A DNA stretch of 64,000 nucleotides from a virus (Duplodnaviria > Caudoviricetes). Both the position numbers and the translations under genes were made by a program. The DNA lies in IMG/VR virus record IMGVR_UViG_3300032303_002590; one strand, written 5' to 3'. Positions within the stretch are counted from its first letter, which is position 1. Every line of letters starts with the position of its first letter. Below, one piece after another: positions 313 to 12,728 of the stretch. Below the pieces are notes generated by a model. The model was not told the origin of the DNA. It worked only from the letters and a program-made list of their open reading frames with translations, and ran no database searches.

Positions 313-352
313 AGAAGGTTTGCTTATGCAAACCTTTTTTCGTATATTAAAG
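313..352 (+). promoter_or_regulatory. hairpin fused to early promoter
   Basis: AAGGTTTGC-ttat-GCAAACCTT stem runs into TTTTCGTATATTAA. Confidence 0.75.
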
Positions 353-370
353 TATAAAAATGAAGAAGTT

Positions 371-802
371 ATGAAAAAGTTATTAGTAATGCTGTTATTT
401 AGTACAGCAATGTTTTCCCAAACAATTAAAGTAAGAGGTGTTACTTTATCTTATGATAAAGTTCATAAAACAATGATCTTAACCATTCCAGAAAAACTAA
501 TGAGAGTTTATGATATAGGTAATGAGGTAAAAGTTATGATAAACAAACAATATAGTTTACGTATGATTATAAATGGAATGGATGTAGCAACATATTCAGA
601 ATACTTTTTACATCAAGGGCATTCTTATGAAAATATGTGGATGTTTTCTACAATTCAACCTGATAATTGTATAGAGGTGAAAAAAAATTATGTGTATAAA
701 TTTACTAATGTGCAACCCAATGAATATATTTTACAGGTAAGTAATATTTGTGATAATAAATGGGAAAGTAATCAACAGAATTATTCAATTATAATAAATT
801 AA
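371..802 (+). CDS. secreted protein with signal peptide (start revised from 308)
   Basis: GTTATG start downstream of the promoter; MKKLLVMLLFSTAMFS/Q fits the Bacteroidota Q-rule. Confidence 0.8.
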   Translation: MKKLLVMLLFSTAMFSQTIKVRGVTLSYDKVHKTMILTIPEKLMRVYDIGNEVKVMINKQYSLRMIINGMDVATYSEYFLHQGHSYENMWMFSTIQPDNCIEVKKNYVYKFTNVQPNEYILQVSNICDNKWESNQQNYSIIIN

Positions 803-803
803 T

Positions 804-926
804 ATGGTACATGTAATAGTAGGATCAATAGCATTAGGGTGTGTTTTAGGAGGATTCATAATAGGTTTTGGATTAATATTTGAAAATTTAATAAAAAAAA
901 TTAAAAATGACCGAAAAAACAGGTAA
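804..926 (+). CDS. small membrane peptide (40 aa, not in ORF track)
   Basis: MVHVIVGSIALGCVLGGFIIGFGLIF hydrophobic helix plus basic tail; fills the gap. Confidence 0.6.
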   Translation: MVHVIVGSIALGCVLGGFIIGFGLIFENLIKKIKNDRKNR

Positions 927-1176
927 TACTGAAAAACTAAATTATGATTTTAATACCGCTTCTAATTTGGAAGTGTTTATGATCAATTTAGATGATTGGT
1001 ATCGAGTTACTTCAAGAGAATTTCGTTCATTCAACGGAAAACGACGTATAAACAACGTTGATTATAACGGACCAATATACCATTATGCTACAAATAGACG
1101 TGCTAATAAATCGCTGTTTCCTAAAGGAAAAATAGTAGAGCATAACTGGGTAAGTAAAAGAAGACCTAACGATTAG
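907..1176 (+). CDS. hypothetical phage protein
   Basis: ORF with typical codon usage. Confidence 0.75.
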   Translation: MTEKTGNTEKLNYDFNTASNLEVFMINLDDWYRVTSREFRSFNGKRRINNVDYNGPIYHYATNRRANKSLFPKGKIVEHNWVSKRRPND

Positions 1177-1230
1177 TTTGGATTTTGGAGAAAATTTTCG
1201 TATATTTAAGTATAAAAAGAAATTAAGGTT

Positions 1231-1467
1231 ATGGAAGAACAAGGGATTATTTTAGAACGAGCAACATTTGAATTCTCACAAGATGGGAATTGTATATCAA
1301 GCTCAGATCAATACGAATCTTTAACAATTGAATGTGAATCATCTTTAGGAATTGATAGAGATGAAGGATGTTTTTATGTTTTGAAAACAGAAAAGTGGTC
1401 AATTGAAGACGAACAAGATTTAAAAAAATTATTTGATAGAATAAGAAAAGTAATAACAAATAAATAA
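1231..1467 (+). CDS. hypothetical early protein
   Basis: Follows a promoter copy; GGTTATG start. Confidence 0.85.
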   Translation: MEEQGIILERATFEFSQDGNCISSSDQYESLTIECESSLGIDRDEGCFYVLKTEKWSIEDEQDLKKLFDRIRKVITNK

Positions 1468-1471
1468 AAAA

Positions 1472-1669
1472 ATGAATAAATTAACAATTCTAGGATCAGC
1501 TATTGGGGTGTTATTAGTAACAGCAGTTATTTTAGCTTGGCCTACACAATTATTATGGAATTATTGTTTAGTAGGAGCAGTAAATGGAATTAATCCAATA
1601 GGATTTTGGCAAGCATTAGGAATTACGTTTTTATTTAACATATTATTTAAACCAACAAGTAATAAATAA
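1472..1669 (+). CDS. small membrane protein
   Basis: Two hydrophobic segments; PIGFWQALG motif. Confidence 0.8.
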   Translation: MNKLTILGSAIGVLLVTAVILAWPTQLLWNYCLVGAVNGINPIGFWQALGITFLFNILFKPTSNK

Positions 1670-1851
1670 TGGCTGAAAAATATTATCAAGTTGTGTTAAC
1701 CAATGGTAAAACACATACATCAATATATAGAACTATACCTAATGCTATTAAAAATGTAGGTGTAAGTAATATAAAAAAGATTGTTGAGTTAAGAAAAGAA
1801 TTAGTTGAAACTAAGTATTTAGAACAAGTAGGAACACAAAACATAGAATAA
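1669..1851 (+). CDS. hypothetical protein
   Basis: TAATG coupling at both ends. Confidence 0.75.
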   Translation: MAEKYYQVVLTNGKTHTSIYRTIPNAIKNVGVSNIKKIVELRKELVETKYLEQVGTQNIE

Positions 1852-2060
1852 TGCAATTTAGTTTTAAAGGTAAAACATATAGAATGGATGAATCGTATTG
1901 GAAAGGAGATATGCTCAACACATCACCTGAATTTCAGTATGAGCAATTAATTTATTGTATTCAAATAGGTGATTTTAAAACCTTAGAAAATAGAATTACA
2001 AATATGTTAAAATGGGGTGGATTATTAGAAGTAACAAATAAAAATAAAGAAAATGAGTAA
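1851..2060 (+). CDS. hypothetical protein
   Basis: TAATG-coupled. Confidence 0.75.
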   Translation: MQFSFKGKTYRMDESYWKGDMLNTSPEFQYEQLIYCIQIGDFKTLENRITNMLKWGGLLEVTNKNKENE

Positions 2061-2193
2061 GAATTCAGCAAAAAGCAACTACGAACAATTAATGGCTTGG
2101 TTACCAACATTAAATCAACCTAAAGCTAAGGTGGAACAATCAACTACTAAGTTTTCAAAGGCAGACCATTATAAGAAAAGTGGTGTAAAATAA
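2053..2193 (+). CDS. small hypothetical protein (46 aa, not in track)
   Basis: MSKNSAKSNYEQLMAWL...; overlaps the upstream stop and fills the gap. Confidence 0.65.
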   Translation: MSKNSAKSNYEQLMAWLPTLNQPKAKVEQSTTKFSKADHYKKSGVK

Positions 2194-2253
2194 TTTGGAG
2201 ATTTAAGATTTTTTTCGTATATTTAAGTATAGAAATTTAAAAACATAAAGGTT

Positions 2254-3048
2254 ATGAAAAGTTTAAAAGCATTATCAAGAGAGGAATTAAAATCATTAGC
2301 TCCTTCAATTTTCAATCACACAGTTGGTACAAAATTAACTGAAAAATATGTGCATATTCCAACAGATACAATTGTTGATGATATGGAAGCATTAGGATGG
2401 GTTCCTTATTCAGTAAAAACAGTTCGTTCTAGAGCTAAAAATGCTGCTACTAAGAAACATTTAGTACAGTTTTTTAATCCTGATATCGTTATTAATGACG
2501 AAAAGGGTGAAGCTGACATGTATCCGCAATTATTATTGATCAATTCACATGATGGTTCAACAGCTGTTAAATTTGAAATGGGTGTATTTCGTTTAGTATG
2601 TGAAAATGGTTTAGTTATTAAATCACAGGATTTTGGTGGTTTCAAAATGAGACATATGGGATATTCATTTGAGGATTTACGAGTGTATATTAATCAGTTA
2701 GTTGAAACATTACCAACTGTAGTTGCTAACTTAAACAAGTTTTCACAAGTTGAAATGACACCTGAACAACAATATGAGTTTGCTACTAAAGCAGTTGAAG
2801 CTCGTTTTGGTGAAGAAAAACAATTATCTTCAGATGAAATTGATAACTTACTTTCAGCTGAACGTAAAGAGGATCAAGGTAATTCAGTTTGGGTTGTTAT
2901 GAATCGTGTTCAAGAAAAGTTAACAAATGGTGGATTTAGTTACTTAAATGCTAAAGGTAAACCAAGAAAAGCGAGAGCTATTAAGAACTTTACTCAAGAC
3001 ATTGATTTTAATCAAAAGATTTGGTCATTGATTGAAGAATATGTTTAA
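2254..3048 (+). CDS. DUF932/DUF945-family protein
   Basis: PQLLLINSHDGS...GVFRLVCENGLV signature. Confidence 0.85.
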   Translation: MKSLKALSREELKSLAPSIFNHTVGTKLTEKYVHIPTDTIVDDMEALGWVPYSVKTVRSRAKNAATKKHLVQFFNPDIVINDEKGEADMYPQLLLINSHDGSTAVKFEMGVFRLVCENGLVIKSQDFGGFKMRHMGYSFEDLRVYINQLVETLPTVVANLNKFSQVEMTPEQQYEFATKAVEARFGEEKQLSSDEIDNLLSAERKEDQGNSVWVVMNRVQEKLTNGGFSYLNAKGKPRKARAIKNFTQDIDFNQKIWSLIEEYV

Positions 3049-3057
3049 AAGTACTAA

Positions 3058-3095
3058 GGAAGGGGATTTTATAATCCCCTTTCGTATATTTATCC
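3058..3095 (+). promoter_or_regulatory. hairpin/terminator fused to promoter
   Basis: AAGGGGATT-ttat-AATCCCCTT then TCGTATATTTAT, which matches both early and late motifs. Confidence 0.75.
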
Positions 3096-3119
3096 ATAAT
3101 TAAAAAATGATATTTAAAA

Positions 3120-3269
3120 ATGGAACAAAATAAAGGAAATAATCGTAAGTTAGAAAAGGTTCAATTTTCAATGCAGGAAATTTGGGCTGCAAGTAAAACA
3201 AAAGTATTTAAGAATAAAAAGAAATATAACAGAAAGGACTCTAATAAGGGTCCTTTTTATATTTGTTAG
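3120..3269 (+). CDS. small basic protein, ArfA-like candidate (49 aa, not in track)
   Basis: MEQNKGNNRKLEKVQFSMQEIWAASKTKVFKNKKKYNRKDSNKGPFYIC; has its own promoter. Confidence 0.65.
   Translation: MEQNKGNNRKLEKVQFSMQEIWAASKTKVFKNKKKYNRKDSNKGPFYIC
3233..3260 (+). terminator. intrinsic terminator inside the 3120-3269 ORF
   Basis: AAAGGACTCT-aata-AGGGTCCTTT plus T-tract, upstream of the TAG at 3267. Confidence 0.7.
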
Positions 3270-3319
3270 GAGATTTAAAAAATCTTTCGTATATTTAAGT
3301 ATAATAAGAAATTAAGGTT

Positions 3320-3517
3320 ATGGAAAATAAAGAAGATAATTTTTACAAAGACGTAAAAGAAACAGGTAAAGTATTAATAATTTCAGCAATTATATACTTT
3401 TTTATTAAGTGGTTAAATGCAAGACCTATTAGATGGGTTTGGTTTATAGCAATATGTACAGTATTGTATTTTATTTCAAAAAATACAGGTTATCAATATC
3501 AAATTTTAGAACCATAA
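3320..3517 (+). CDS. small membrane protein
   Basis: Two hydrophobic helices; own promoter. Confidence 0.8.
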   Translation: MENKEDNFYKDVKETGKVLIISAIIYFFIKWLNARPIRWVWFIAICTVLYFISKNTGYQYQILEP

Positions 3518-3528
3518 AAAATTAAATT

Positions 3529-3648
3529 ATGTCACATCCAACAACACAGGAATTTTTAGAGTATTGGACAGAGTTTTATATGAATCAAGGAATTGATTTA
3601 GAGAGAGCAATTGAGTTAGCAGAGAAGGAATTAGATAAGTGGGATTAA
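3529..3648 (+). CDS. small acidic peptide (39 aa, not in track)
   Basis: A-rich leader plus TTATG; MSHPTTQEFLEYW... Confidence 0.65.
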   Translation: MSHPTTQEFLEYWTEFYMNQGIDLERAIELAEKELDKWD

Positions 3649-3687
3649 TTTCGTATATTTAAGTATAAATTTAAAAAATAAAAGGTT

Positions 3688-4428
3688 ATGACAAATCAAT
3701 TAGAATTAGAATTAGGGGTATTAACAGATGTTCAACAAGAACGTGTTAACAGTTTTGTAAAATCTCAAAAATCAGAGGTTGAAAAATTAATTAGTCTTCA
3801 AACTAAAATTGAAGGATTATTAATTAGTGGGGGTTTTAAAGCAGGTATTGACTATATTAATGATTTAGAATATAGTATGGTTAATGAATATAGAAATTTT
3901 GGTTATAGAGAAGATGCATTTACTTCTAATGTAACTTATATGAAATCTTCAGGTGGTTGTAAAATTATATTTAAAAGATATAATAAAAGTTCAAATAAAA
4001 TTGAAGTTAATAAATCAATGGTATATAATGAACATAATAAATTAGAATGTTCAGCTATTACTCCACAGTATAGAGCTTACTTACCATCTTCATTATTTGA
4101 TAAATTATTAGAGAATAATAATAAAGCACAACTTGATTATAATAGTGCTAATCGTGAAAAAACAGTTATTAACTATACTATTGACAAATATAAAATATTA
4201 TTTCCTAATGCTACTGTTAATGTAAGTAATGATTATAGTAAAAATTATAAAGGTAATTATACTGAATTTCCAATTATAACTGTAACATTTGAAAATGGTT
4301 CATATGTTAGTTTTAGATTAGGTTATGAAAATGATAAAGAATTTGTTCATAAGAAATTTGATGCAATTGCTTCAAAATTAACAGCAATTGAATTGTTAAA
4401 TGTATTTAATGATCAAAATATTAAGTAA
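3688..4428 (+). CDS. hypothetical early protein
   Basis: Own promoter; GGTTATG start. Confidence 0.85.
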   Translation: MTNQLELELGVLTDVQQERVNSFVKSQKSEVEKLISLQTKIEGLLISGGFKAGIDYINDLEYSMVNEYRNFGYREDAFTSNVTYMKSSGGCKIIFKRYNKSSNKIEVNKSMVYNEHNKLECSAITPQYRAYLPSSLFDKLLENNNKAQLDYNSANREKTVINYTIDKYKILFPNATVNVSNDYSKNYKGNYTEFPIITVTFENGSYVSFRLGYENDKEFVHKKFDAIASKLTAIELLNVFNDQNIK

Positions 4429-4431
4429 TTA

Positions 4432-4470
4432 AGGAAGGGGTTTTTAAAACCCCTTTTCGTATATTTAAGT
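4432..4470 (+). promoter_or_regulatory. hairpin/terminator fused to early promoter
   Basis: AAGGGGTTTT-t-AAAACCCCTT inverted repeat then TTCGTATATTTAAG. Confidence 0.75.
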
Positions 4471-4490
4471 ATAATTAAAAAATTAAAATT

Positions 4491-4940
4491 ATGACAAGAT
4501 TATTTAGAGATGTAGATTATTACATCGTACAAGCTTCTAATAGCACACAAAGAGAATTTGAATTAGACTTTGCAGACATCATAGAAGTATATGATGAACA
4601 TGAAACAGAGCTTACTACTGAGTGTGGGAGAACGTTAATCATTCATTGGTATTCAAACGGCTATTATCAAAGTTATCAAGTAATCTATGAGACTGAACAA
4701 ATGTCTAATAGAGTTGACAGAGAGATGATATTAAAGGTTATTGATTTACTTCGGACAATAGAGGTAGATGGAGAAACAATGCAATACATTCTAAACAAGG
4801 TAGGAATGGAAGATCAAATGTTAAGACAATTAATAATGTCTCAACCAATTGAAGAGGTAAGATATTTGATTGAAGAAAGAGAAGAATTAGAAGAGGAATT
4901 TGAATATGAAGGTGATATAGAAGATTTACAAGGGAATTAA
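4491..4940 (+). CDS. acidic hypothetical protein
   Basis: Own promoter; E-rich C-terminus. Confidence 0.8.
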   Translation: MTRLFRDVDYYIVQASNSTQREFELDFADIIEVYDEHETELTTECGRTLIIHWYSNGYYQSYQVIYETEQMSNRVDREMILKVIDLLRTIEVDGETMQYILNKVGMEDQMLRQLIMSQPIEEVRYLIEEREELEEEFEYEGDIEDLQGN

Positions 4941-5004
4941 ATAATCAAATTTAATTTCGTATATTTAAGTATAAGAAAAATTAATAATTTAAAAAATAAA
5001 GGTT

Positions 5005-5316
5005 ATGTGTAAAAAAACAACTCAAAGTGCAAACGGAACATCATTCCACAGTACAACAATTAATGCAAGTGTTAATCAATTAATCAATACTTTTGGTGAA
5101 CCTACCAATCAATATAATACAGGTGAAGATAAAGTAAATTTTGAATGGGTATTAGAAACTGATGAAGGTGATGTATTTACCTTATATGATTGGAAAGAAG
5201 GTCGTCCATTAAGTTCAGATGAAACTATTGAATGGCATATTGGTTCACATTCAAGAGATATTTCAGGTGAAGCTCAATATGAAGTGATGAGAGAATTAGG
5301 TAATTATGTTGAGTAA
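5005..5316 (+). CDS. conserved phage hypothetical protein
   Basis: FGEP...DKVxxEW...TLYDWK...WHIG pattern recalled from many phages; function unknown. Confidence 0.8.
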   Translation: MCKKTTQSANGTSFHSTTINASVNQLINTFGEPTNQYNTGEDKVNFEWVLETDEGDVFTLYDWKEGRPLSSDETIEWHIGSHSRDISGEAQYEVMRELGNYVE

Positions 5317-5377
5317 GGAATAAGATTTTTAAAATATCTTTCGTATATTTAGGTATCAATAATTAAAAAAGAAAATT

Positions 5378-5653
5378 ATGTCATATAATGAAGTTTTTAG
5401 AAAGAATGCACGTGATTTAGAGGAAGAAAAACAAAACACCTTCCCTTCATGTATCAGTATTATAGAAAAGTTTATTCAAAGTGAAATTGATAAAAACACA
5501 GCATCTAATGAATATATTCTAGCATTAAATGAATGTACAACATTAGAGGACTTGGTTTATGAAGTTGATATGTGGAAAGTTCCTAATGTAATAAAAAATT
5601 ATGGTAGTGTTGCTAATTATATTTTAATGAGTTTAGATAAGGAATATGATTAA
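5378..5653 (+). CDS. hypothetical early protein
   Basis: Own promoter. Confidence 0.8.
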   Translation: MSYNEVFRKNARDLEEEKQNTFPSCISIIEKFIQSEIDKNTASNEYILALNECTTLEDLVYEVDMWKVPNVIKNYGSVANYILMSLDKEYD

Positions 5654-5714
5654 TAAATAAAAGTTCGTATATTTAATTATAAGAAAAATTAATAATTTAA
5701 AACAAAAAAAGGTT

Positions 5715-6092
5715 ATGAAAGTTACAAAAGAAAATGCAATCGCTTCAGTTCAAAATTCAGTTAGTTCTATCTTTTCAAAAGATGATGTGTTATTCCTTCT
5801 TAATTCAGTAGAAGTAGGTTCTAGTAGAAAAATTACTACTGAGGATATTGAAAGAGCGATTGATAAAACTATTAATTGGATTGATAATAATGAAAGAGAG
5901 ATAGTTGATTTAGATTCAGCTGAGTTTGAATTAACTTACAATAATCAAATTGAATGTGTTGGTGTTCCAATTAGTTCTGAAAGTATTAGAGAAGTATTAG
6001 AAAATAACTTCATGGATTTTGGTGAAACAGAAGATGAGGAGGAAGAAGAGTTTATTAGAATAACAGATGTAGTTGTTAATAACGAATTGTAG
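5715..6092 (+). CDS. acidic hypothetical protein
   Basis: Own promoter; D/E-rich. Confidence 0.85.
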   Translation: MKVTKENAIASVQNSVSSIFSKDDVLFLLNSVEVGSSRKITTEDIERAIDKTINWIDNNEREIVDLDSAEFELTYNNQIECVGVPISSESIREVLENNFMDFGETEDEEEEEFIRITDVVVNNEL

Positions 6093-6101
6093 TAAATGAA
6101 T

Positions 6102-6134
6102 AGAGAGCGATTTTAATTAATCGCTCTTTTTTTT
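6102..6134 (+). terminator. intrinsic terminator
   Basis: AGAGCGATT...AATCGCTCT plus long T run. Confidence 0.85.
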
Positions 6135-6209
6135 ATTAAGGAATAAGTTTTTTAAATTTAATTTCGTATATTTAAACGTTCAAGAGATATAAATTAAAAA
6201 AGAAAAGTT

Positions 6210-6410
6210 ATGGAATCAAATAAAAGAATTAGTGATGTAAGGGAATATTTTGATGTAAATTATTCTTATGTAGACATTGGAAGCATTTCAGATGAAGTTA
6301 TTTTAGATTACTTAAGTAATGGTTGGGTGTTAAATGTACCATTTGAAAGAAAAATGGACTTGTTATATGATTATATTTTAGCAAATGATTTAACTTATAT
6401 TAGTAGATAA
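6210..6410 (+). CDS. hypothetical early protein
   Basis: Own promoter. Confidence 0.8.
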   Translation: MESNKRISDVREYFDVNYSYVDIGSISDEVILDYLSNGWVLNVPFERKMDLLYDYILANDLTYISR

Positions 6411-6469
6411 GGAATAAATTTTTTAATATAAATTTCGTATATTTAAGTATAATAATTAAAACAAATGTT

Positions 6470-6766
6470 ATGACTAAGAAAGAACAAAAAAACATTATTA
6501 CAAAACATGTAATTGAAGCAGTACAAAAGAATTTTAATGTAGTTGCAGATTTTAATGATGATGAAGGTCATGGTTATTTTACTTTTTCTATTGAAAGTGA
6601 AGGTAATGAATTTTTCTTTGATATGAGTAGAAATGATTTTTCTATTATATCTTATAAAGTTAGAGGTGAAAAATTATACAATGAAGCTCAACAATTAGAA
6701 CAGGAATTGGATGAGTTTATTGCAAATGAAATAGCAATTGTTGTTATAAATGAATTTTTTATTTAA
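6470..6766 (+). CDS. hypothetical early protein
   Basis: Own promoter. Confidence 0.8.
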   Translation: MTKKEQKNIITKHVIEAVQKNFNVVADFNDDEGHGYFTFSIESEGNEFFFDMSRNDFSIISYKVRGEKLYNEAQQLEQELDEFIANEIAIVVINEFFI

Positions 6767-6823
6767 AATAAATTTCGTATATTTAATCTGTAAGAAAGTT
6801 AAATAATTAAAAAAGAAAATGTT

Positions 6824-7120
6824 ATGAGTAAATTTAGAGAATTAAGAATGAATCCACCTAAATTAACAATTAAAGAAGGTGCGAGAGAAGTAATATTTAA
6901 AACTATTGATGCAATGTGTGATAATGTTCACTACATTACATTTAAGAAAAATGAAGAAGGTGACTTTAAAATGAATGGGAATGGTTTCTCACTTTCTAAT
7001 TGGCAAATGAAACATGAAAAACATGAAGTTGAATGGGAAGCAGATGAAAATATGTGGGGAGGAGTTATTGCAATGATTAATTCAGGAGTATCGGTAGTTG
7101 AATCAGTAATAAGTAGATAA
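6824..7120 (+). CDS. hypothetical early protein
   Basis: Own promoter. Confidence 0.8.
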   Translation: MSKFRELRMNPPKLTIKEGAREVIFKTIDAMCDNVHYITFKKNEEGDFKMNGNGFSLSNWQMKHEKHEVEWEADENMWGGVIAMINSGVSVVESVISR

Positions 7121-7130
7121 ATTAAATAAA

Positions 7131-7192
7131 GGAAGGGAGTTTTTAACTCCCTTTTCGTATATTTAAGTATAATTAAAAAGATAAAAATTATG
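7131..7192 (+). promoter_or_regulatory. hairpin-promoter-leader cassette, near-duplicate of 7591-7652
   Basis: GGAAGGGAGTT..AACTCCCTTTTCGTATATTTAAGTATAATTAAAAAGATAAAAATTATG. Confidence 0.8.
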
Positions 7193-7333
7193 GAAAATTT
7201 AGACAGATTTTACGATTGGATGTTAAGAATGGGAAATGTACATTTAGCTGATAATGAGCAAATGTCAAAAGCATATGAAGCTATAGTGGAAAGTGATAAA
7301 CAAGTGAAAAATGTAATTTTAATAACTAAATAA
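7190..7333 (+). CDS. small hypothetical protein (47 aa, not in track)
   Basis: Starts at the cassette ATG; MENLDRFYDWMLRMG... Confidence 0.75.
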   Translation: MENLDRFYDWMLRMGNVHLADNEQMSKAYEAIVESDKQVKNVILITK

Positions 7334-7335
7334 TT

Positions 7336-7581
7336 ATGATAAACTTAACTATTCAAGATCAAATAAATGGTTCAAACAAAACACAAATGTTAAGAGAAGC
7401 AATTGGTAAGGAATTCAGTGATAATTATAGTTCAACTAATCGAAGTATGTTAATTGATGTAAGCGAATGTGGTAATGTTTGTTATACTATGGAAATTATG
7501 AGTGAATATTCAAAAAATGAACCTAAATTAGGTATTTTTAAACAACCAAGTTGGTTGACTTGGAACGGAATGTTTTATTAA
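7336..7581 (+). CDS. hypothetical protein
   Basis: ORF coupled to the upstream gene. Confidence 0.75.
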   Translation: MINLTIQDQINGSNKTQMLREAIGKEFSDNYSSTNRSMLIDVSECGNVCYTMEIMSEYSKNEPKLGIFKQPSWLTWNGMFY

Positions 7582-7649
7582 AGTAAAGATGGAAGGTGAT
7601 TTTAAATCACCTTTTCGTATATTTAAGTATAATTAAAAAAATAAAAATT

Positions 7650-7862
7650 ATGAAATTTATAAAATTAACATCAGTGGACCAATCCTCAATTTTAATTAAT
7701 GTAAACCAAATAGGACATTTTTATCAAGTTGATGATAAAATGGAATATGGAAGAGTTACAGAAAAAAAACATACCAGAATAGGTGTAACAACACATAATA
7801 ATGGTGGTTTTAAAGTAATTGAAAGTGTAGAAAAAATACTTAAATTAATTAGTGAGAACTAA
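7650..7862 (+). CDS. FlbD/SwrD-like small protein (start revised from 7596)
   Basis: MKFIKLT...ILINVNQI...T.I......F.VIESVEKI pattern resembles the FlbD family. Confidence 0.6.
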   Translation: MKFIKLTSVDQSSILINVNQIGHFYQVDDKMEYGRVTEKKHTRIGVTTHNNGGFKVIESVEKILKLISEN

Positions 7863-7931
7863 GGTATTTGAGAATTAAATAAAATTTCGTATATTTAATC
7901 TGTAATAAGTTAATAATTAAAAAAGAAAATT

Positions 7932-8198
7932 ATGAAAATCGAATTAAACACAGAAGCAAGAGACAAAAGAATTAACCAAAACTATCATGATGCCTTAAAT
8001 AAGATATCTTCTTATGCTGAACAAGGTTTTGATTTAACAGAACATATCTTTCCAAAAGATATATATGAACAAGTAAGGACTAAAATTAGTGATCACATGT
8101 ATGCGTTTGATATTAAATTTGTCTGGGCGAGTATAGGTAATATGAATAGTATTGCTGTTGGGGACGGTCGTTTAATGAGATTTAAACTGTTAAATTAA
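7932..8198 (+). CDS. hypothetical early protein
   Basis: Own promoter. Confidence 0.8.
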   Translation: MKIELNTEARDKRINQNYHDALNKISSYAEQGFDLTEHIFPKDIYEQVRTKISDHMYAFDIKFVWASIGNMNSIAVGDGRLMRFKLLN

Positions 8199-8270
8199 GG
8201 TATTTGAGAATTAAATTAAAGTTCGTATATTTCGAATGTTAAAAAGATAAATAATTAAAAAAGTAATGTT

Positions 8271-8438
8271 ATGAAAGAACAAATTTTAAATTTAGCAGAT
8301 GATTTATTTTTAGAAGATAATTCACCTAAAAGAGAGGCATTTATTAAAGAATTCGAAAGTGCAGTTGCATTAATGAGAGAAAATGATTTTGATCAATTTT
8401 ATGCTTTTGCAGATATTATAATGCAAAAATATAATTAA
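8271..8438 (+). CDS. small hypothetical protein (55 aa, not in track)
   Basis: Own promoter; GTTATG start; MKEQILNLADDLF... Confidence 0.75.
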   Translation: MKEQILNLADDLFLEDNSPKREAFIKEFESAVALMRENDFDQFYAFADIIMQKYN

Positions 8439-8450
8439 AAAATAAATGTT

Positions 8451-8648
8451 ATGAAAGTATTTAAAATTATAACTAAGGTAAAATCAGTTAAAACTATTCA
8501 ATATATTGTTGAAGCAAACTCAATAGAGGAAGCAGAAATGTTAATAATTGAAGGTAATGAAAGAGGTGAAGGTGAAGAAGTTAAAGATAAAATAAAATGG
8601 GGAAGTGAGATTTTAACTAAAATCGAATTTATAGAGGAATTAGATTAA
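8451..8648 (+). CDS. hypothetical protein
   Basis: Y.VEANSIEEA pattern common in small phage proteins. Confidence 0.8.
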   Translation: MKVFKIITKVKSVKTIQYIVEANSIEEAEMLIIEGNERGEGEEVKDKIKWGSEILTKIEFIEELD

Positions 8649-8707
8649 TTAAATTAATTTCGTATATTTAACATGTAAAAAAGATATAATAATTAAAAAA
8701 GAAAAAT

Positions 8708-8950
8708 ATGTTAGTATTTAAAGAAAATGTTTATGGTTTTGTTTATGATTCAGTTGATGGTACTGTTACAAAGGTATATAAGGAACCTTTAAAGGAAAAA
8801 GAAATATTTTTAATAAATAATGTATTAGATAAAGATGTTTATTTATTTACAGATATTGAAGATTGTAATGACTGTTTTAATATTATTACTAAGGAAGATC
8901 TTGATAATGATGAGGAAGGTTTAAATAAGGTATTTGATTTTATAAATTAA
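8708..8950 (+). CDS. acidic hypothetical protein
   Basis: Own promoter. Confidence 0.8.
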   Translation: MLVFKENVYGFVYDSVDGTVTKVYKEPLKEKEIFLINNVLDKDVYLFTDIEDCNDCFNIITKEDLDNDEEGLNKVFDFIN

Positions 8951-8996
8951 TTTCGTATATTTAATCTGTAATAAGATAATAATTAAAAAATAAGTT

Positions 8997-9323
8997 ATGA
9001 AAATACAATTTAAGGTTATCAATTTAGGTTTAAATGAATTTGGTGTTCAAGAATTAAATAATTATTATAAAGATAATATTAGTGAGAATTGGGTTCATAA
9101 ATTCAAATTAGGAGAAATTGTAGATAGTAACACAAAAATATTTAAACAAGAGAAATCATTTTTAAAATTGAAAGAAAATAACTATATTGGAAATTATAAT
9201 TGTACACAATATATTAAAGGTTCAGAATATGGTGGAGGTTATTTTTCAATTCAATTAAAACATATTAATTATAGAATAGTTAAATTAGAAATAATTGAGA
9301 AAGAGAATGAATTTGTTTTTTAA
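8997..9323 (+). CDS. hypothetical early protein
   Basis: Own promoter. Confidence 0.8.
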   Translation: MKIQFKVINLGLNEFGVQELNNYYKDNISENWVHKFKLGEIVDSNTKIFKQEKSFLKLKENNYIGNYNCTQYIKGSEYGGGYFSIQLKHINYRIVKLEIIEKENEFVF

Positions 9324-9380
9324 AATACTTTTCGTATATTTAATCTGTAATTGAGTTAAATAATTAAAAGAAAAAAAGTT

Positions 9381-9638
9381 ATGAAAAATGTATTTGTTAT
9401 GTCCTTTGTTGATGATTTAGAAACTGTTAATAAGTTTGATGAATTTGGTTTTGTTTGTGGAATTGATGATTCGGTAAATGGTATTTGGTGTTGTGAAAGA
9501 GATTTAAGTTATTTAAGTGAAGAAGAAGTAATTAATTTTATTGAAAAAACATCTAAGGAATTGGACTATTTTGTTAATGTAAATGGTGAAAATTTTGATA
9601 AAGAAGATATTGAATTAATTAAAAATAAATTAAATTAA
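9381..9638 (+). CDS. acidic hypothetical protein
   Basis: Own promoter. Confidence 0.8.
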   Translation: MKNVFVMSFVDDLETVNKFDEFGFVCGIDDSVNGIWCCERDLSYLSEEEVINFIEKTSKELDYFVNVNGENFDKEDIELIKNKLN

Positions 9639-9642
9639 GGTT

Positions 9643-9834
9643 ATGAAGAAATTGAATAGTTTTGAAAGTTATTTAGTGATTGAAGGATTAAATAATTTAA
9701 AGGAGGAATATAAAAAAGATATAAGAAGAATTATTGAAGAAGGTAAAAATCCTTTAATGACTCAAGGTTATATAGAAATGGTGGTGGAAGAAACAATAAA
9801 TAAAATAAAACAACTGACACTAAAACAAAAATAA
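9643..9834 (+). CDS. hypothetical protein
   Basis: GGTTATG start. Confidence 0.8.
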   Translation: MKKLNSFESYLVIEGLNNLKEEYKKDIRRIIEEGKNPLMTQGYIEMVVEETINKIKQLTLKQK

Positions 9835-9879
9835 AACTCAGTAAATAAATGATGGAAGATAAAGAAATATTATTAAGTG

Positions 9880-10180
9880 ATTTAGTGGGGGAAAACTAAA
9901 TAAGTAATGTAAAAGAAATGTAGAGGTAATGTAGGGGAAGTGATTTCCCTATCTCTATTATAATGTGGAAAAAACATCCTATGAGGGAACGTATTTAGGA
10001 AAGATAATCCTAATATGAGTGAGGAATAGGATTGTATGTGGAAATGAGTAGTGGTGTGATGTGGTGGTTGGGAGGAAGGTACCGGTACTTTACCTATCCC
10101 AGGAAAACAATTCCTCCCCCCTAAAAAAGTATATACAAACCCTACCTCCAATTTCCAATTCCCTCAATAAAAGCAACGGT
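9880..10180. other. non-coding region with a G-rich to C-rich switch centred on palindrome GTACCGGTAC
   Basis: Perfect 10-bp palindrome at 10079-10088 inside imperfect inverted repeat 10069-10101. Confidence 0.7.
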
Positions 10181-10278
10181 TTATAAAAAATATGTTGTAA
10201 AATGGTTGGAGTTTTAAAATATCTTTCGTATATTTAATATGTAAGAAAGTTAAATAATTAAAAGAAAAATAAAAGGTT

Positions 10279-10650
10279 ATGACAAAAGAACAATTTTTAA
10301 ACGGAACTGAATTTTATATTGGTAGAAAAAGTTACAAAGGAGCGGAAACATATTCCTACAATGCAAAAGACAATTATATGTCTAAACAAATCAGATCTTC
10401 TATTGATGAAAGAGTGGTATTAGAAGACTATGTTTGTAACGTAACAAAGATTGGTCGTGTAGGTTTTGTATGTATTACATTTGTAATGAAAAAGAAAGTA
10501 GTAGTTAAATATAAGTTTGAAGATTTGGTTGAATTTGAAGATCAAGGACCACAATATGATGGTGCGGGATTTAGTATTGAAGATAGAGAAGATGATGATG
10601 AAGAACAATCACACCACTGCGATGATCCATCTTGTAACTGTTCAATTTAG
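10279..10650 (+). CDS. hypothetical protein with acidic His/Cys tail
   Basis: Own promoter; ends EDDDEEQSHHCDDPSCNCSI. Confidence 0.8.
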   Translation: MTKEQFLNGTEFYIGRKSYKGAETYSYNAKDNYMSKQIRSSIDERVVLEDYVCNVTKIGRVGFVCITFVMKKKVVVKYKFEDLVEFEDQGPQYDGAGFSIEDREDDDEEQSHHCDDPSCNCSI

Positions 10651-10695
10651 TAAAATTTGAAGGGGAGAATAGCTAACTCCCCAAGTATTAATCCA

Positions 10696-10766
10696 GACTA
10701 ATAGGCGTAATTGGAAAAACGCTCCGCAATGACGGAAGAGAGTGGGTTCGATTCCCACATTAGTCA
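10696..10766 (+). tRNA. tRNA-like RNA or pseudo-tRNA with shortened anticodon arm
   Basis: Acceptor GACTAAT/ATTAGTC; D arm GCGT-AATTGGAAAA-ACGC; T arm GTGGG-TTCGATT-CCCAC; anticodon arm only TCCG-CAATGA-CGGA; no encoded CCA. Confidence 0.7.
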
Positions 10767-10817
10767 CTATAGTGCTTCTCATAACCACTATTATTTTTTA
10801 ATTATTACAAGCCAGCC

Positions 10818-10838
10818 GCCCCACTATGTGGGGCTTTT
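10818..10838 (+). terminator. intrinsic terminator after the tRNA-like element
   Basis: GCCCCAC-tat-GTGGGGC-TTTT. Confidence 0.7.
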
Positions 10839-11035
10839 GGTGATTAATGGAGGATCCTCCCCATATAGCGCGCCTCATGGTGAAGGATGCTCTACGTTAT
10901 AGACGAAAGAGAAAGGATCCATGAGCAATGCTCAATGAATATCCCAACTTATTGAGCATCTGTTAGTTTGCGTGGTAAATTTGGATACGCTAAAATAATT
11001 TCGTATATTTACATGTAATTAAAAAATGATATATT

Positions 11036-11218
11036 ATGAAAAAGTTTACAGTAGAAATTGGTCTTAGAAAACAAGCTAATAAAGCCTTAATCAATTCAAA
11101 TAAGTTAAAACATGTGTTTTATAATACCGGAACTACCTTTATTGTAAACAGTGAAGATTTAGGTGATTGTATTGATATATTAGATCGAAACATGATAAAA
11201 GTGAATTTGATTAGTTAA
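11036..11218 (+). CDS. hypothetical protein
   Basis: Own promoter (TTGG-N19-TATATT). Confidence 0.75.
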   Translation: MKKFTVEIGLRKQANKALINSNKLKHVFYNTGTTFIVNSEDLGDCIDILDRNMIKVNLIS

Positions 11219-11275
11219 AACAATTTCGTATATTTAACATGTAATAAGAAATTAATTAATAAATAAATAAAGGTT

Positions 11276-11641
11276 ATGAAAAATCAAGAAACAAAATTAG
11301 GTAGACCAGTTAACGTAAATTCAGTAAGACAAATTAGATTGGCCGAATTGGCTGCCAAACGTGAGGCAGGTGAAATTAAACGTGGAAGACCCGTGAATGT
11401 TGAAAGTAAATTCAACCAACGTAAATTGGAATTAGAGGCTAAACGTTTAAATGGAGAATTAAAACGTGGTAGACCAGTAGTGGAAGGATCTAAACGTCAA
11501 TTAAGATTATCAGTTAAGGGATTAGTTAAATTAGGACGTAAGCCAAACCCTCTAAGTAAATCCTACCAACGTAAGTTGGAGTTGCAAACAAAACGTTTGA
11601 ATGGGACCATAAAATTAGGTCGTCCTGCTAAAGCGGAATAA
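11276..11641 (+). CDS. basic repeat protein with AT-hook-like K(L/R)GRP motifs; putative DNA-binding
   Basis: Four K(L/R)GRP motifs plus one KLGRK in repeats of about 28 aa. Confidence 0.8.
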   Translation: MKNQETKLGRPVNVNSVRQIRLAELAAKREAGEIKRGRPVNVESKFNQRKLELEAKRLNGELKRGRPVVEGSKRQLRLSVKGLVKLGRKPNPLSKSYQRKLELQTKRLNGTIKLGRPAKAE

Positions 11642-11653
11642 ATCTCCCATAAT

Positions 11654-11692
11654 GTAGTTTCGGGCCTGCCCTCACAGGCCCACTACTTTATA
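11654..11692 (+). terminator. intrinsic terminator
   Basis: GGGCCTG-ccctca-CAGGCCC with outer GTAG/CTAC pairing and T-rich tail. Confidence 0.65.
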
Positions 11693-11750
11693 TTTGGATA
11701 CGCCAGATCAATTTCGTATATTTAACATGTAATAAGATAAAAATTAGGTT

Positions 11751-11897
11751 ATGACAGACAAAACAACACAACGTGTAGCAAATATTGCTAAAATTGGATT
11801 AGTTATTTTATGGTTAGCATTTATGTGCTCCCTAACATCATGTGCATCACATTGCAGACAACAACACCGTTACTGGAATAACCATAGATGTGTATAA
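11751..11897 (+). CDS. small lipoprotein-like peptide (48 aa, not in track)
   Basis: Own promoter; hydrophobic stretch then LTSC lipobox; Cys-rich tail. Confidence 0.7.
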   Translation: MTDKTTQRVANIAKIGLVILWLAFMCSLTSCASHCRQQHRYWNNHRCV

Positions 11898-12121
11898 TGA
11901 TAATTTCATCTAAAAAATATGCCGCATGGCATAAGAAGGTTACCAATAAGCCCGTTACGCCTACCCTACAAATAGGAGTGGTATACTGGGGCGATACAGG
12001 TAATGGCAACATGGTCTGTGGTATGCTAGTTGGATACGAAAACGATATGGCTATAATAACCGATGCACGTGGTAAAGAGCATATCGTTATACAATCCACG
12101 TTACGCCCAGCGTATAATTAA
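11897..12121 (+). CDS. hypothetical protein (start probably 11897)
   Basis: TAATG coupling to the upstream peptide. Confidence 0.65.
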   Translation: MIISSKKYAAWHKKVTNKPVTPTLQIGVVYWGDTGNGNMVCGMLVGYENDMAIITDARGKEHIVIQSTLRPAYN

Positions 12122-12178
12122 AATTTACTCGCGGGGATAACTCCTCCCATATAGTTATGGTTAAAAATACCATATACT

Positions 12179-12412
12179 ATGAATACATTTAAATCACTTA
12201 CCAAATTATCCGCCCAACTGGCGGATCTTATGGAGCAACTGGATGATGCGTTGAATGATATCGATAATAGCGAGTTATATAGCGAAATTGATAATAACGT
12301 TAAATCTCCCATAGAAAACGCGCTTACGCACCTGGATATCGCTTTGGATGATATTTCCGATGGCTTGTACGAGGATGCTCCCGAGTCTGAGGATTTCGAA
12401 GAGTGGGACTAA
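12179..12412 (+). CDS. highly acidic helical protein
   Basis: D/E-dense with very few basic residues. Confidence 0.75.
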   Translation: MNTFKSLTKLSAQLADLMEQLDDALNDIDNSELYSEIDNNVKSPIENALTHLDIALDDISDGLYEDAPESEDFEEWD

Positions 12413-12431
12413 AAAGGATTTTCTTGGATGA

Positions 12432-12551
12432 TTTCGATCCGCATACGGCCGCTGGCGATCTATAATGGATCGCCCACGCGGCGTTGCTGTCCATACGCGC
12501 GCCGGTGGCGGGTCAGGATCTGAATGCGCCATCTACAGATCGAAAACGATC
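12432..12551. other. GC-rich structured non-coding element with six GATC sites
   Basis: About two-thirds GC; nested stems 12432-39/12538-45 and 12440-44/12524-28; hairpin 12448-12482. Confidence 0.7.
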
Positions 12552-12728
12552 TTTCACCCAACCCCCCATATATACTAATATACCCACAATTCGGAATTTA
12601 ATTTCCGAAATACCCTTTTCAGACTCACTTCACAAGATCTTAAAATCTCCTTTTTAAAAATTTTTTACCAAACGCTTGGATATACAAATCTTTGTTCGTA
12701 TATTAATGGATAATAAAAAAACAGTTAT

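What the first reader, a model, noticed from the sequence alone, without database searches (positions are those of the whole stretch)
3120..3269. Unannotated ArfA-like peptide gene whose terminator precedes its stop codon
Seen: a 49-aa ORF with a basic KVFKNKKKYNRK segment. A 10-bp hairpin plus T-tract (3233-3260) lies inside the CDS, ahead of the TAG at 3267, so a terminated transcript would be non-stop. Known: E. coli ArfA has RVEKNKKGKGSYMRK, and arfA and Bacillus brfA are expressed from non-stop mRNAs, so protein accumulates only when trans-translation is limiting. Inference: a phage ribosome-rescue factor with the same sensing logic, useful against defences that cleave mRNA or tRNA. Sequence similarity is weak; the shared architecture is the main evidence.
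Basis: partly seen in the sequence, partly recalled or inferred. Interest (0 to 1): 0.7.

Follow-up and report, generated by a model that had tools for sequence, protein, structure and literature searches.

The report
Small phage gene ending inside its terminator
A real 49-residue, very basic phage protein gene has its transcription terminator inside its last 13 codons, as the bacterial ribosome-rescue genes arfA and brfA do; it also shares a short motif with ArfA, but a rescue function is not shown.

Summary
ORF 3120-3269 (+) is real. A strong hairpin (3231-3258) and T-tract lie ahead of the TAG at 3267. It is the only clear terminator-like hairpin (of about a dozen on this strand) inside the 3' end of an ORF in this 64-kb window.

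The window is a T4-like phage of Flavobacteriia. Its early region is an array of about 25 promoter-ORF(-hairpin) cassettes.

The ORF belongs to a widespread, uncharacterised, mostly phage-borne family of 38-55 residues. The core is QEIW...KNKKKYxRKxKHK, and synonymous codon use shows selection on the protein.

In the window's close clade (six distinct sequences) the internal hairpin is kept by compensating base changes that cost amino-acid changes. The stop always lies beyond the T-tract. About 30 more distant homologues end normally, with no internal hairpin.

ArfA is the only Protein Data Bank hit of the family profile (E 2.5), aligned on KNKK..YxRKxKH. The Pfam ArfA model and a profile-profile comparison give no support, ArfA's KGKGS loop is missing, and the window's copy has lost the KH.

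Best reading: a small basic protein, probably binding nucleic acid or the ribosome, in a mobile cassette whose terminator sits in the variable tail. An ArfA-like rescue factor remains possible (about 15%).

An earlier first-reader note covers this same stretch.

The parts
2254..3048 (+). upstream gene, DUF932-family protein (264 aa)
   Evidence: Pfam PF06067, E 4.8e-27. The same gene neighbours the small ORF in L004 and L005, and lies near it in L001-L003.
3058..3083 (+). stem-loop closing the DUF932 gene and overlapping the -33 region of the next promoter (PeSL-like composite)
   Evidence: 11 pairs, 5 GC. The same hairpin-plus-promoter design occurs at 4433, 7131 and 7591.
3081..3092 (+). promoter core TTCGTATATTTA of the small gene
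   Evidence: 22 exact and 3 one-mismatch copies, all on the + strand, between 339 and 12706; 0 of 100 shuffles reach the count. Each is followed 20-42 nt later by an ATG opening an ORF, here 27 nt.
3120..3269 (+). 49-aa ORF, member of a phage small basic protein family
   Evidence: 24 true homologues by exhaustive phmmer. 35 distinct loci sequences; invariant residues use all synonymous codons, Arg by five.
3210..3236 (+). codons 31-39, KNKKKYNRK: the invariant basic motif of the family and the segment that aligns with ArfA 31-42
   Evidence: Alignment A2; PDB profile alignment to 5u4i chain w; hhalign.
3231..3258 (+). intrinsic-terminator-like hairpin inside codons 38-47
   Evidence: Conserved in six distinct clade sequences, 95.8% of cells paired, with one C-G to U-A double change and two one-sided changes.
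3254..3266 (+). T-rich tract (TTTTTATATTTGT), encoding F-Y-I-C
   Evidence: Sequence. T-rich in all clade members although the residues differ: FYIC, FYVY, YLVC, FYSLCK, YLVY.
3267..3269 (+). TAG stop, at the 5' edge of the next promoter module
   Evidence: In other cassettes the upstream gene's TAA lies in the conserved TAAGGAAT edge of the module. TAGGAGATTT is the equivalent here (inference).
3286..3297 (+). promoter core of the next cassette
   Evidence: Exact TTCGTATATTTA; ATG at 3320.
3320..3517 (+). downstream gene, 65-aa hydrophobic protein of unknown function
   Evidence: only weak sub-threshold Pfam matches.

Best explanation
ORF 3120-3269 is a genuine protein gene of a widespread, uncharacterised, mainly phage-borne family. 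Members have a short helix around QEIW and then an invariant basic stretch, KNKKKYxRK, usually followed by xKHK.

It is one cassette (host-type early promoter, A-rich leader, ORF, hairpin) in the hyperplastic early region of a T4-like phage of Flavobacteriia.

In this phage lineage only, the cassette's intrinsic terminator lies within the variable C-terminal tail of the ORF. The RNA hairpin is the feature under selection there. The stop codon is supplied further on, at the edge of the next promoter module.

Inferred consequences: RNA polymerase that terminates releases an mRNA without a stop codon. Ribosomes on it stall at the 3' end, and the product is tagged by tmRNA. Protein yield would then come from read-through transcripts or from times when trans-translation is saturated. 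Whether this is exploited or merely tolerated is open.

The protein most probably acts by binding nucleic acid, the ribosome being the leading candidate target. This step is inferred from composition and the ArfA-like motif only.
For: The gene is real and under protein-level selection:
- phmmer finds 24 small homologues.
- 35 distinct loci keep W, KNKKKY and RK while using all synonymous codons.

Cassette context:
- 25 copies of the promoter module, each followed by an ORF.
- The window carries T4-type portal, Gp23 capsid and terminase genes. Its portal is 64% identical to that of Flavobacterium phage immuto.
- The cassette sits at different places in related contigs, as described for PeSL-mediated shuffling (PMC2839356, PMC4122927; titles and abstracts).

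Hairpin:
- MFE -18.2 kcal/mol, z -4.3.
- It is the only clear terminator-like hairpin inside the 3' end of an ORF in 64 kb.
- In six clade sequences it is kept by C-G to U-A and by U-G to C-G or U-A changes. These alter the residues (Gly to Asp or Asn, Ser to Pro). The tail residues and the stop position drift.

The tail is dispensable:
- After RK, the family's C-termini vary in length and sequence.
- Distant members, including one behind the same promoter type (L136), end with ordinary stops; terminators, where present, follow the stop (L274, L284).

AlphaFold2 gives one helix at residues 18-25 and coil elsewhere.
Against: The layout has persisted through several substitutions without a stop arising ahead of the hairpin. 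This hints that it is at least not harmful and may be used.

Two ArfA-like traits, the tunnel-type motif and the terminator before the stop, coincide in one gene. A purely incidental reading does not explain that.

No transcript or protein data exist. Ribosomes closely coupled to the polymerase could suppress the terminator, so that most mRNA carries the stop.
Confidence: 0.5

Rival explanations
1. ArfA/BrfA-like phage ribosome-rescue factor. The basic segment occupies the empty mRNA tunnel of a stalled ribosome, and the N-terminal part recruits a release factor. In this clade the non-stop mRNA makes the protein accumulate only when trans-translation is overwhelmed, for example after host nucleases cut mRNA or tRNA.
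For: - The family profile's only PDB hit among 177,635 sequences is ArfA. It is aligned on residues 28-51, the part that lies in the mRNA tunnel (PMC5378476).
- E. coli ArfA scores 10.8 bits against the family model; 1 of 5000 shuffles reaches that.
- YxRKxKH is shared. KH is reported as the only motif common to ArfA and BrfA and binds a pocket of the tunnel (PMC8012679). It is present in 27 of 35 family members.
- brfA has a terminator before its stop, and the arfA stem-loop causes termination or RNase III cleavage.
- The internal hairpin is conserved with compensation in the clade.
- A few chromosomal copies follow RNase_T and cREC_REC genes beside alaS; this is weak support.
Against: - PDB E-value 2.5; hhalign probability 6.4%; no Pfam ArfA hit in 25 members.
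- The ArfA model does not pick out the homologue in the F. aciduliphilum genome.
- The KGKGS loop is absent.
- The likeness weakens with divergent ArfAs.
- No likeness in the RF2-binding N-terminal half.
- The window's copy lacks KH.
- About 30 distant members have normal stops, so sensing by a non-stop mRNA is not a family property.
- Some copies lie nested in a late structural gene.
Confidence: 0.15
2. A ribosome-tunnel or A-site binding peptide that acts against the host. It would block tmRNA-SmpB or other factors, or damp host translation, rather than rescue ribosomes.
For: It rests on the same motif evidence. A synthetic peptide equal to the SmpB tail is reported to inhibit tmRNA-SmpB binding (PMC8012679). 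The gene has an early promoter, as host-takeover genes do.
Against: There is no direct evidence. A peptide that blocks trans-translation yet is itself made from non-stop mRNA would be self-limiting only in part. The motif statistics have the same weakness as above.
Confidence: 0.07
3. A basic DNA- or RNA-binding protein unrelated to the ribosome, for example one that condenses nucleic acid or is associated with the virion. The ArfA likeness would be chance among lysine-rich peptides.
For: Lys/Arg make up about a third of the residues. Eight loci carry the ORF inside the scaffold-like gene of the head module of Flavobacteriia podophages. The ArfA match is statistically insignificant database-wide.
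Against: Expression in the window is from an early promoter. The conserved non-basic QEIW helix and the invariant Tyr point to a specific partner rather than bulk charge neutralisation.
Confidence: 0.1
4. The ORF and hairpin form a translation-coupled attenuator. Ribosomes translating the ORF melt the hairpin and let transcription run on into the downstream genes, so the peptide's own activity is secondary.
For: The hairpin lies wholly within translated codons 38-47 and is the most conserved DNA block of the cassette.
Against: The downstream gene has its own promoter 17 nt after the stop. The peptide sequence is strongly conserved in phages without any hairpin, unlike leader peptides.
Confidence: 0.05
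5. The promoter-to-terminator unit (about 170 nt) is a non-coding small RNA and the ORF is fortuitous.
For: Promoter, short transcript and terminator is the anatomy of a small RNA.
Against: Protein-level conservation with free synonymous variation across 35 loci. No Rfam match.
Confidence: 0.02

Closest known systems
ArfA (alternative ribosome-rescue factor A, Pfam PF03889; E. coli YhdL)
   Same: A small basic peptide with the same 30-residue offset to KNKK. Shared string (R/K)x(R/K)V.KNKK...Y.RK (then .KH in most relatives) over ArfA residues 26-45, which lie in the A site and mRNA tunnel. In this clade, an RNA stem-loop ahead of the stop codon.
   Different: No significant sequence relationship. 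A single Lys replaces the KGKGS loop. There is no likeness in the RF2-binding N-terminus. The window copy lacks KH. Most family members lack the internal hairpin. The family occurs in phages of Bacteroidota, and on contigs binned to other phyla, rather than in beta/gamma-proteobacterial chromosomes.
BrfA (Bacillus ribosome rescue factor A, YqkK)
   Same: A rho-independent terminator ahead of the stop codon, so that the mRNA is non-stop. A KH motif is found in the basic C-terminal part of most family members.
   Different: No sequence match: the PDB holds BrfA-ribosome entries and none was hit. BrfA is reported as limited to Bacillus. The window copy lacks KH.
PeSL cassettes of T4-type phages (promoter-early stem-loop composite motifs)
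   Same: A repeated stem-loop-plus-early-promoter module flanks small, variable early ORFs in a T4-like genome. The small gene changes position among related contigs.
   Different: The promoter is of the Bacteroidota type, TTnG about 19 nt before TATATTTA (my reading, from published consensus). In this one cassette the stem-loop lies inside the ORF, not after it.
Pfam DUF7230 (PF23876)
   Same: 14 of 25 family members give weak hits to the model over the basic half.
   Different: The six members re-scanned singly were all below the 27-bit cut-off, and the window's protein gives no hit at all. A canonical member (L043, 36.9 bits) has a different core, NPVARNLNKFNKPATHKDKKK. It shows no profile-level relation to this family or to ArfA.

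Membership tests
ArfA (PF03889) | Match to the family HMM above the gathering score | tested here: not met
   No hit at E <= 10 for the window protein or for any of 25 family members. The ArfA model searched over the F. aciduliphilum genome does not pick out the homologue.
ArfA (PF03889) | Profile-level relationship to ArfA sequences | tested here: inconclusive
   PDB profile search: ArfA is the only hit, at E 2.5 and 11 bits. hhalign probability 6.4% over 21 columns. Shuffle test: 1/5000 for E. coli ArfA, 65/5000 and 4082/5000 for two divergent ArfAs. My ArfA alignment was of low diversity.
ArfA (PF03889) | Conserved KKGKGSY loop | tested here: not met
   The family has KNKKKY, with a three-residue gap opposite GKG in the alignments.
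ArfA (PF03889) | Basic tail with RKxKH reaching the mRNA tunnel entry | tested here: not met
   YxRKxKH is present in 27 of 35 relatives but absent from the window's protein, which reads YNRKDSNKGP.
ArfA (PF03889) | Stem-loop inside the ORF giving a non-stop mRNA | tested here: inconclusive
   The hairpin and T-tract lie ahead of the stop in the window and five other clade sequences. They are absent from about 30 distant homologues. RNA 3' ends were not measured.
ArfA (PF03889) | Binds non-stop ribosomes and recruits RF2 for peptide release; synthetic lethality with ssrA | not testable with these tools
   Needs biochemistry or genetics.
BrfA | Sequence relationship to B. subtilis BrfA | tested here: not met
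   No BrfA chain among the PDB hits of the protein or the profile at E <= 10. No NCBIfam hit.
BrfA | Rho-independent terminator before the stop codon | tested here: met
   function as a terminator is inferred.
PeSL-type cassette (T4-like phages) | Repeated composite of stem-loop and early promoter flanking variable small ORFs in a T4-like genome | tested here: met
   25 promoter modules, four with a GC stem overlapping the -33 region. T4-type portal, capsid and terminase. The cassette position varies among relatives.
DUF7230 (PF23876) | Match above the 27-bit gathering score | tested here: not met
   Window protein: no hit. Six relatives re-scanned singly score 13-20 bits, over the basic half only.

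The most novel reading that the evidence does not exclude
The KNKKKYxRKxKH family would be a phage-borne class of release-factor-dependent ribosome-rescue factors, or at least sensors of the mRNA tunnel, analogous or distantly related to ArfA. It is spread among phages of Flavobacteriia and also occurs on contigs binned to other phyla. In the T4-like Flavobacteriia phage clade it would have independently acquired the arfA/brfA trick of being made from a non-stop mRNA, so that it accumulates only when trans-translation is saturated, for instance after host anti-phage nucleases cut mRNA or tRNA.
Probability: 0.15. Interest if true: 0.85.

Novelty: new variant of a known kind. Interest (0 to 1): 0.5.

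Why it matters
A terminator ahead of the stop codon is the hallmark regulatory device of arfA and brfA. Here it occurs in a phage gene and is kept by compensating base changes that override the protein sequence. The protein carries the same short basic string that ArfA lays in the ribosome's mRNA tunnel.

If the family binds stalled ribosomes, it would be the first phage-encoded alternative rescue factor, or an antagonist of rescue. It would link phage early genes to host defences that cut RNA.

If it does not, the locus is still a clean natural example of a conserved intragenic terminator in a PeSL-like cassette. It also defines an unstudied small-protein family that is easy to test.

Tried and rejected
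1. Cultured-phage records: tblastn of the window protein and three relatives found nothing. The low-complexity filter may be the reason.
2. DUF7230 as a bridge to ArfA: a canonical member (L043) and its relatives show no relation to ArfA or to this family. Rejected.
3. More diverse ArfA sequences. The word-index search returned only Enterobacteriaceae, as did the loci scan. A class-wide genome sample gave two divergent ArfAs, and one of them had a single relative. The ArfA profile therefore stayed shallow.
4. A -1 frameshift at AAAAAG ahead of the hairpin, ending at the TAATAA in the loop: the -1 frame meets TAA after two codons and would remove the conserved KYNRK. Rejected by reading the sequence.
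5. Small-RNA reading: rejected on codon evidence; no Rfam family.
6. A conserved gene partner: neighbour clustering over 37 loci found none beyond close relatives.
7. Protein Atlas look-alikes: only unnamed clusters.
9. No tmRNA gene in the window.
10. Selection on the nested copies: variable sites are spread over all three codon positions, so this was not informative.

Full report
**What is there.**

Window 3120-3269 (+) is a 49-codon ORF whose product contains KVFKNKKKYNRK. Bases 3231-3258 form an 11-12 bp hairpin. The RNA MFE of 3215-3275 is -18.2 kcal/mol, z -4.3, and none of 200 shuffles fold as well. The hairpin is followed by TTTTTATATTTGT and only then by TAG (3267-3269).

The consensus scan finds 18 terminator-like sites in the first 12 kb, against 1.9 expected. 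I made my own census of the + strand of all 64 kb. Every other convincing hairpin with a T-tract that closes a gene lies 5-40 nt after that gene's stop. This is the only one inside the 3' end of an ORF.

That the terminated RNA ends near 3260-3263, before the stop, follows from what is known of intrinsic terminators. It is not measured.

**Setting.**

The window carries a T4-type portal, Gp23 capsid protein and terminase. Its portal is 64% identical to that of Flavobacterium phage vB_FspM_immuto.

The first 12.7 kb hold 22 exact and 3 near-exact copies of TTCGTATATTTA, all on the + strand. The consensus module is AAGGAATTnGATTTTTAAAATnAAT-TTCGTATATTTAAGTATAA. Each copy is followed 20-42 nt later by an ATG that opens a small ORF.

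From published Bacteroidota promoter consensus (my knowledge), TTnG about 19 nt before TAtaTTTa looks like a host sigma-A promoter. Four modules have a GC stem over the -33 region (3058, 4433, 7131, 7591). These are composite terminator-promoters like the PeSLs of T4-type phages (PMC2839356, PMC4122927).

The upstream gene's TAA usually lies in the module's TAAGGAAT edge. The small ORF's TAG lies at the equivalent edge (TAGGAGATTT) of the module at 3286, so its stop seems to be supplied by the next cassette (inference).

**The gene is real.**

Exhaustive phmmer found 26 hits at E <= 0.001. Twenty-four are 40-76-residue proteins sharing LEKIxxTMQEIWxAx(K/R)PxVxKNKKKYxRKxKHK.

More came from metagenomes.

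Across 35 distinct loci sequences the invariant residues are written with all synonymous codons: Arg with five, Lys, Tyr and Asn with both. Selection is therefore on the protein, not on an RNA.

AlphaFold2 with the alignment gives one helix at residues 18-25 and coil elsewhere, mean pLDDT 76.

The family is not in Pfam in any useful sense. The window protein hits nothing. Relatives give weak hits to DUF7230 over the basic half only; the six re-scanned singly scored 13-20 bits against a 27-bit cut-off. A canonical DUF7230 protein has a different core and no profile-level link. DUF7230 was seen in 1 of 301 sampled Bacteroidota genomes, weakly.

The family is mostly phage-borne and sporadic in chromosomes.

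**Is the internal terminator conserved?**

In the close clade, yes. That clade comprises the window, L001/L002, L003, L004/L005, L228 and L230: six distinct sequences, all behind the same promoter type.

The hairpin is the best conserved DNA block of the cassette. All GC-core pairs are kept, and 95.8% of cells are paired. Pair 16-27 changes from C-G to U-A in two sequences. Pair 17-26 changes from U-G to C-G or U-A.

These changes alter the encoded residues (Gly to Asp or Asn, Ser to Pro). The residues after the hairpin drift (FYIC, FYVY, YLVC, FYSLCK, YLVY), and in L228 the stop lies 6 nt further on. The RNA structure, not the peptide, is what is kept here, and the stop always lies beyond the T-tract.

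With six related sequences this is suggestive covariation, not proof: 26 of 500 shuffles reach the covariation score.

Outside the clade, no. About 30 more distant homologues end with ordinary stops a few codons after RKxKHK, with no hairpin ahead of them. Where a terminator exists it follows the stop (L274, L284). One member behind the same promoter type (L136) has a normal stop directly before the next promoter.

The non-stop layout is therefore a lineage-specific feature set in the family's variable tail.

**Is it ArfA-like?**

For:
- The family profile searched against all PDB sequences has a single hit at E <= 10, ArfA. Residues 28-51 (RQRVEKNKKgkgSYMRKGKHGNRG) align to kpkVhKNKK...KYnRKdkhkkkk.
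- That is the part of ArfA that lies in the A site and mRNA tunnel. Truncation after Met40 abolishes activity (PMC5378476).
- The KH motif is reported as the only sequence feature shared by ArfA and BrfA, and it binds a pocket of the tunnel (PMC8012679). YxRKxKH occurs in 27 of 35 family members.
- Against composition-matched shuffles, E. coli ArfA's score of 10.8 bits is reached once in 5000.

Against:
- E 2.5 is not significant.
- hhalign gives 6.4% probability.
- The Pfam ArfA model hits none of 25 members and does not find the homologue in a Flavobacterium genome.
- ArfA's most conserved element, the KGKGS loop, is replaced by one Lys.
- The likeness drops with two divergent ArfAs (p 0.013, then none). 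This is not what true homology to the conserved core predicts.
- The N-terminal halves are not alike.
- The window's own protein has lost five codons, including KH, relative to L003-L005.

I therefore do not file it under ArfA or BrfA. A shared mode of binding, by convergence on the mRNA tunnel, remains a fair possibility.

**Weighing.**

Starting from a small basic gene with a terminator ahead of its stop, a unique PDB hit to a rescue factor's tunnel segment is unlikely by chance. Several things pull the other way: the missing hairpin in most of the family, the missing KGKGS and KH, and the shallow statistics.

I put an ArfA-like rescue function at about 0.15 and another ribosome-directed role at about 0.07.

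The most probable account (0.5) is this. A small nucleic-acid- or ribosome-binding protein sits in a mobile early cassette. Its terminator has come to lie in the dispensable tail, so much of its mRNA is probably non-stop, and this is either tolerated or used.

**Context that did not decide.**

No conserved gene partner exists. A few chromosomal copies in Weeksellaceae lie tail-to-tail with alaS, after RNase_T and, in one, a cREC_REC gene. Others sit beside SIR2/SLOG, RecN/pirin or an ABC-F-like gene.

Eight loci from podophages of Flavobacteriia carry the ORF in another frame inside the acidic N-terminal part of a scaffold-like gene, between the portal-sized gene and the structural (likely capsid) gene. 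A cultured relative (elemoF) has a shorter scaffold gene without it.

**Novelty.**

The layout (terminator before stop) is known from arfA and brfA. Finding it conserved in a phage gene of an unrelated or only motif-related family is a new variant. The literature search found no paper on DUF7230 or on the KNKKKY motif, and none on phage-encoded ArfA-like factors among those retrieved.

An earlier first-reader note of this scan covers this same stretch. Another describes the promoter array and suggested the PeSL comparison, which I checked.

Noticed in passing
window 339-12706 (+): An array of 25 promoter modules with the consensus AAGGAATTnGATTTTTAAAATnAAT-TTCGTATATTTAAGTATAA. Each is followed by an A-rich leader and a small ORF. 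The upstream gene's TAA is usually embedded in the TAAGGAAT edge. Four modules (3058, 4433, 7131, 7591) have a GC stem over the -33 region. This looks like a Bacteroidota-promoter version of T4-type PeSL cassettes.
   Followed up: partly
L016:2998-3135, L038:2995-3129, also L026, L027, L029, L034, L037, L040: Family members of 40-48 aa lie in a different frame, wholly inside the acidic N-terminal region of a 378-397-aa scaffold-like gene. That gene sits between the portal-sized gene and the structural (likely capsid) gene of elemo/Cellulophaga-like podophages. KNKKKYSRK in one frame reads EQEEVQPE in the other. The cultured phage elemoF has a shorter scaffold gene (339 aa) without the nested ORF. 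This is either an overprinted or an inserted gene.
   Followed up: partly
L031:2863-3405: In a 430-kb viral contig the small-protein domain is fused in frame to a downstream lipoprotein-like sequence (signal peptide with LFSGC lipobox). This is either a lost stop or an assembly error.
   Followed up: no
L009:2673-3147, L295, L296, L010: Chromosomal copies in Weeksellaceae lie tail-to-tail with alaS, at the end of a variable islet. The islet holds an RNase_T exonuclease and, in one genome, a cREC_REC (cyclic-phosphate processing receiver) gene that overlaps the small ORF's start by 11 nt. A WYL-WCX regulator lies upstream in L010.
   Followed up: partly
window 10696-10766 (+): Rfam finds a tRNA (38.3 bits) that ARAGORN did not report. 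It lies within the early cassette array.
   Followed up: no
window 3224-3236 versus L004:4947-4976: Relative to L003-L005, the window and L001/L002 copies lack five codons (EKHNK). This removes the KH element that most of the family shares with ArfA and BrfA.
   Followed up: yes
window 3270-3285 (+): A second, AT-only mini-hairpin (AGATTT aaa AAATCT) lies directly against the next promoter core. It occupies the place where other modules have the -33 element, so the promoter at 3286 has an atypical upstream half.
   Followed up: no
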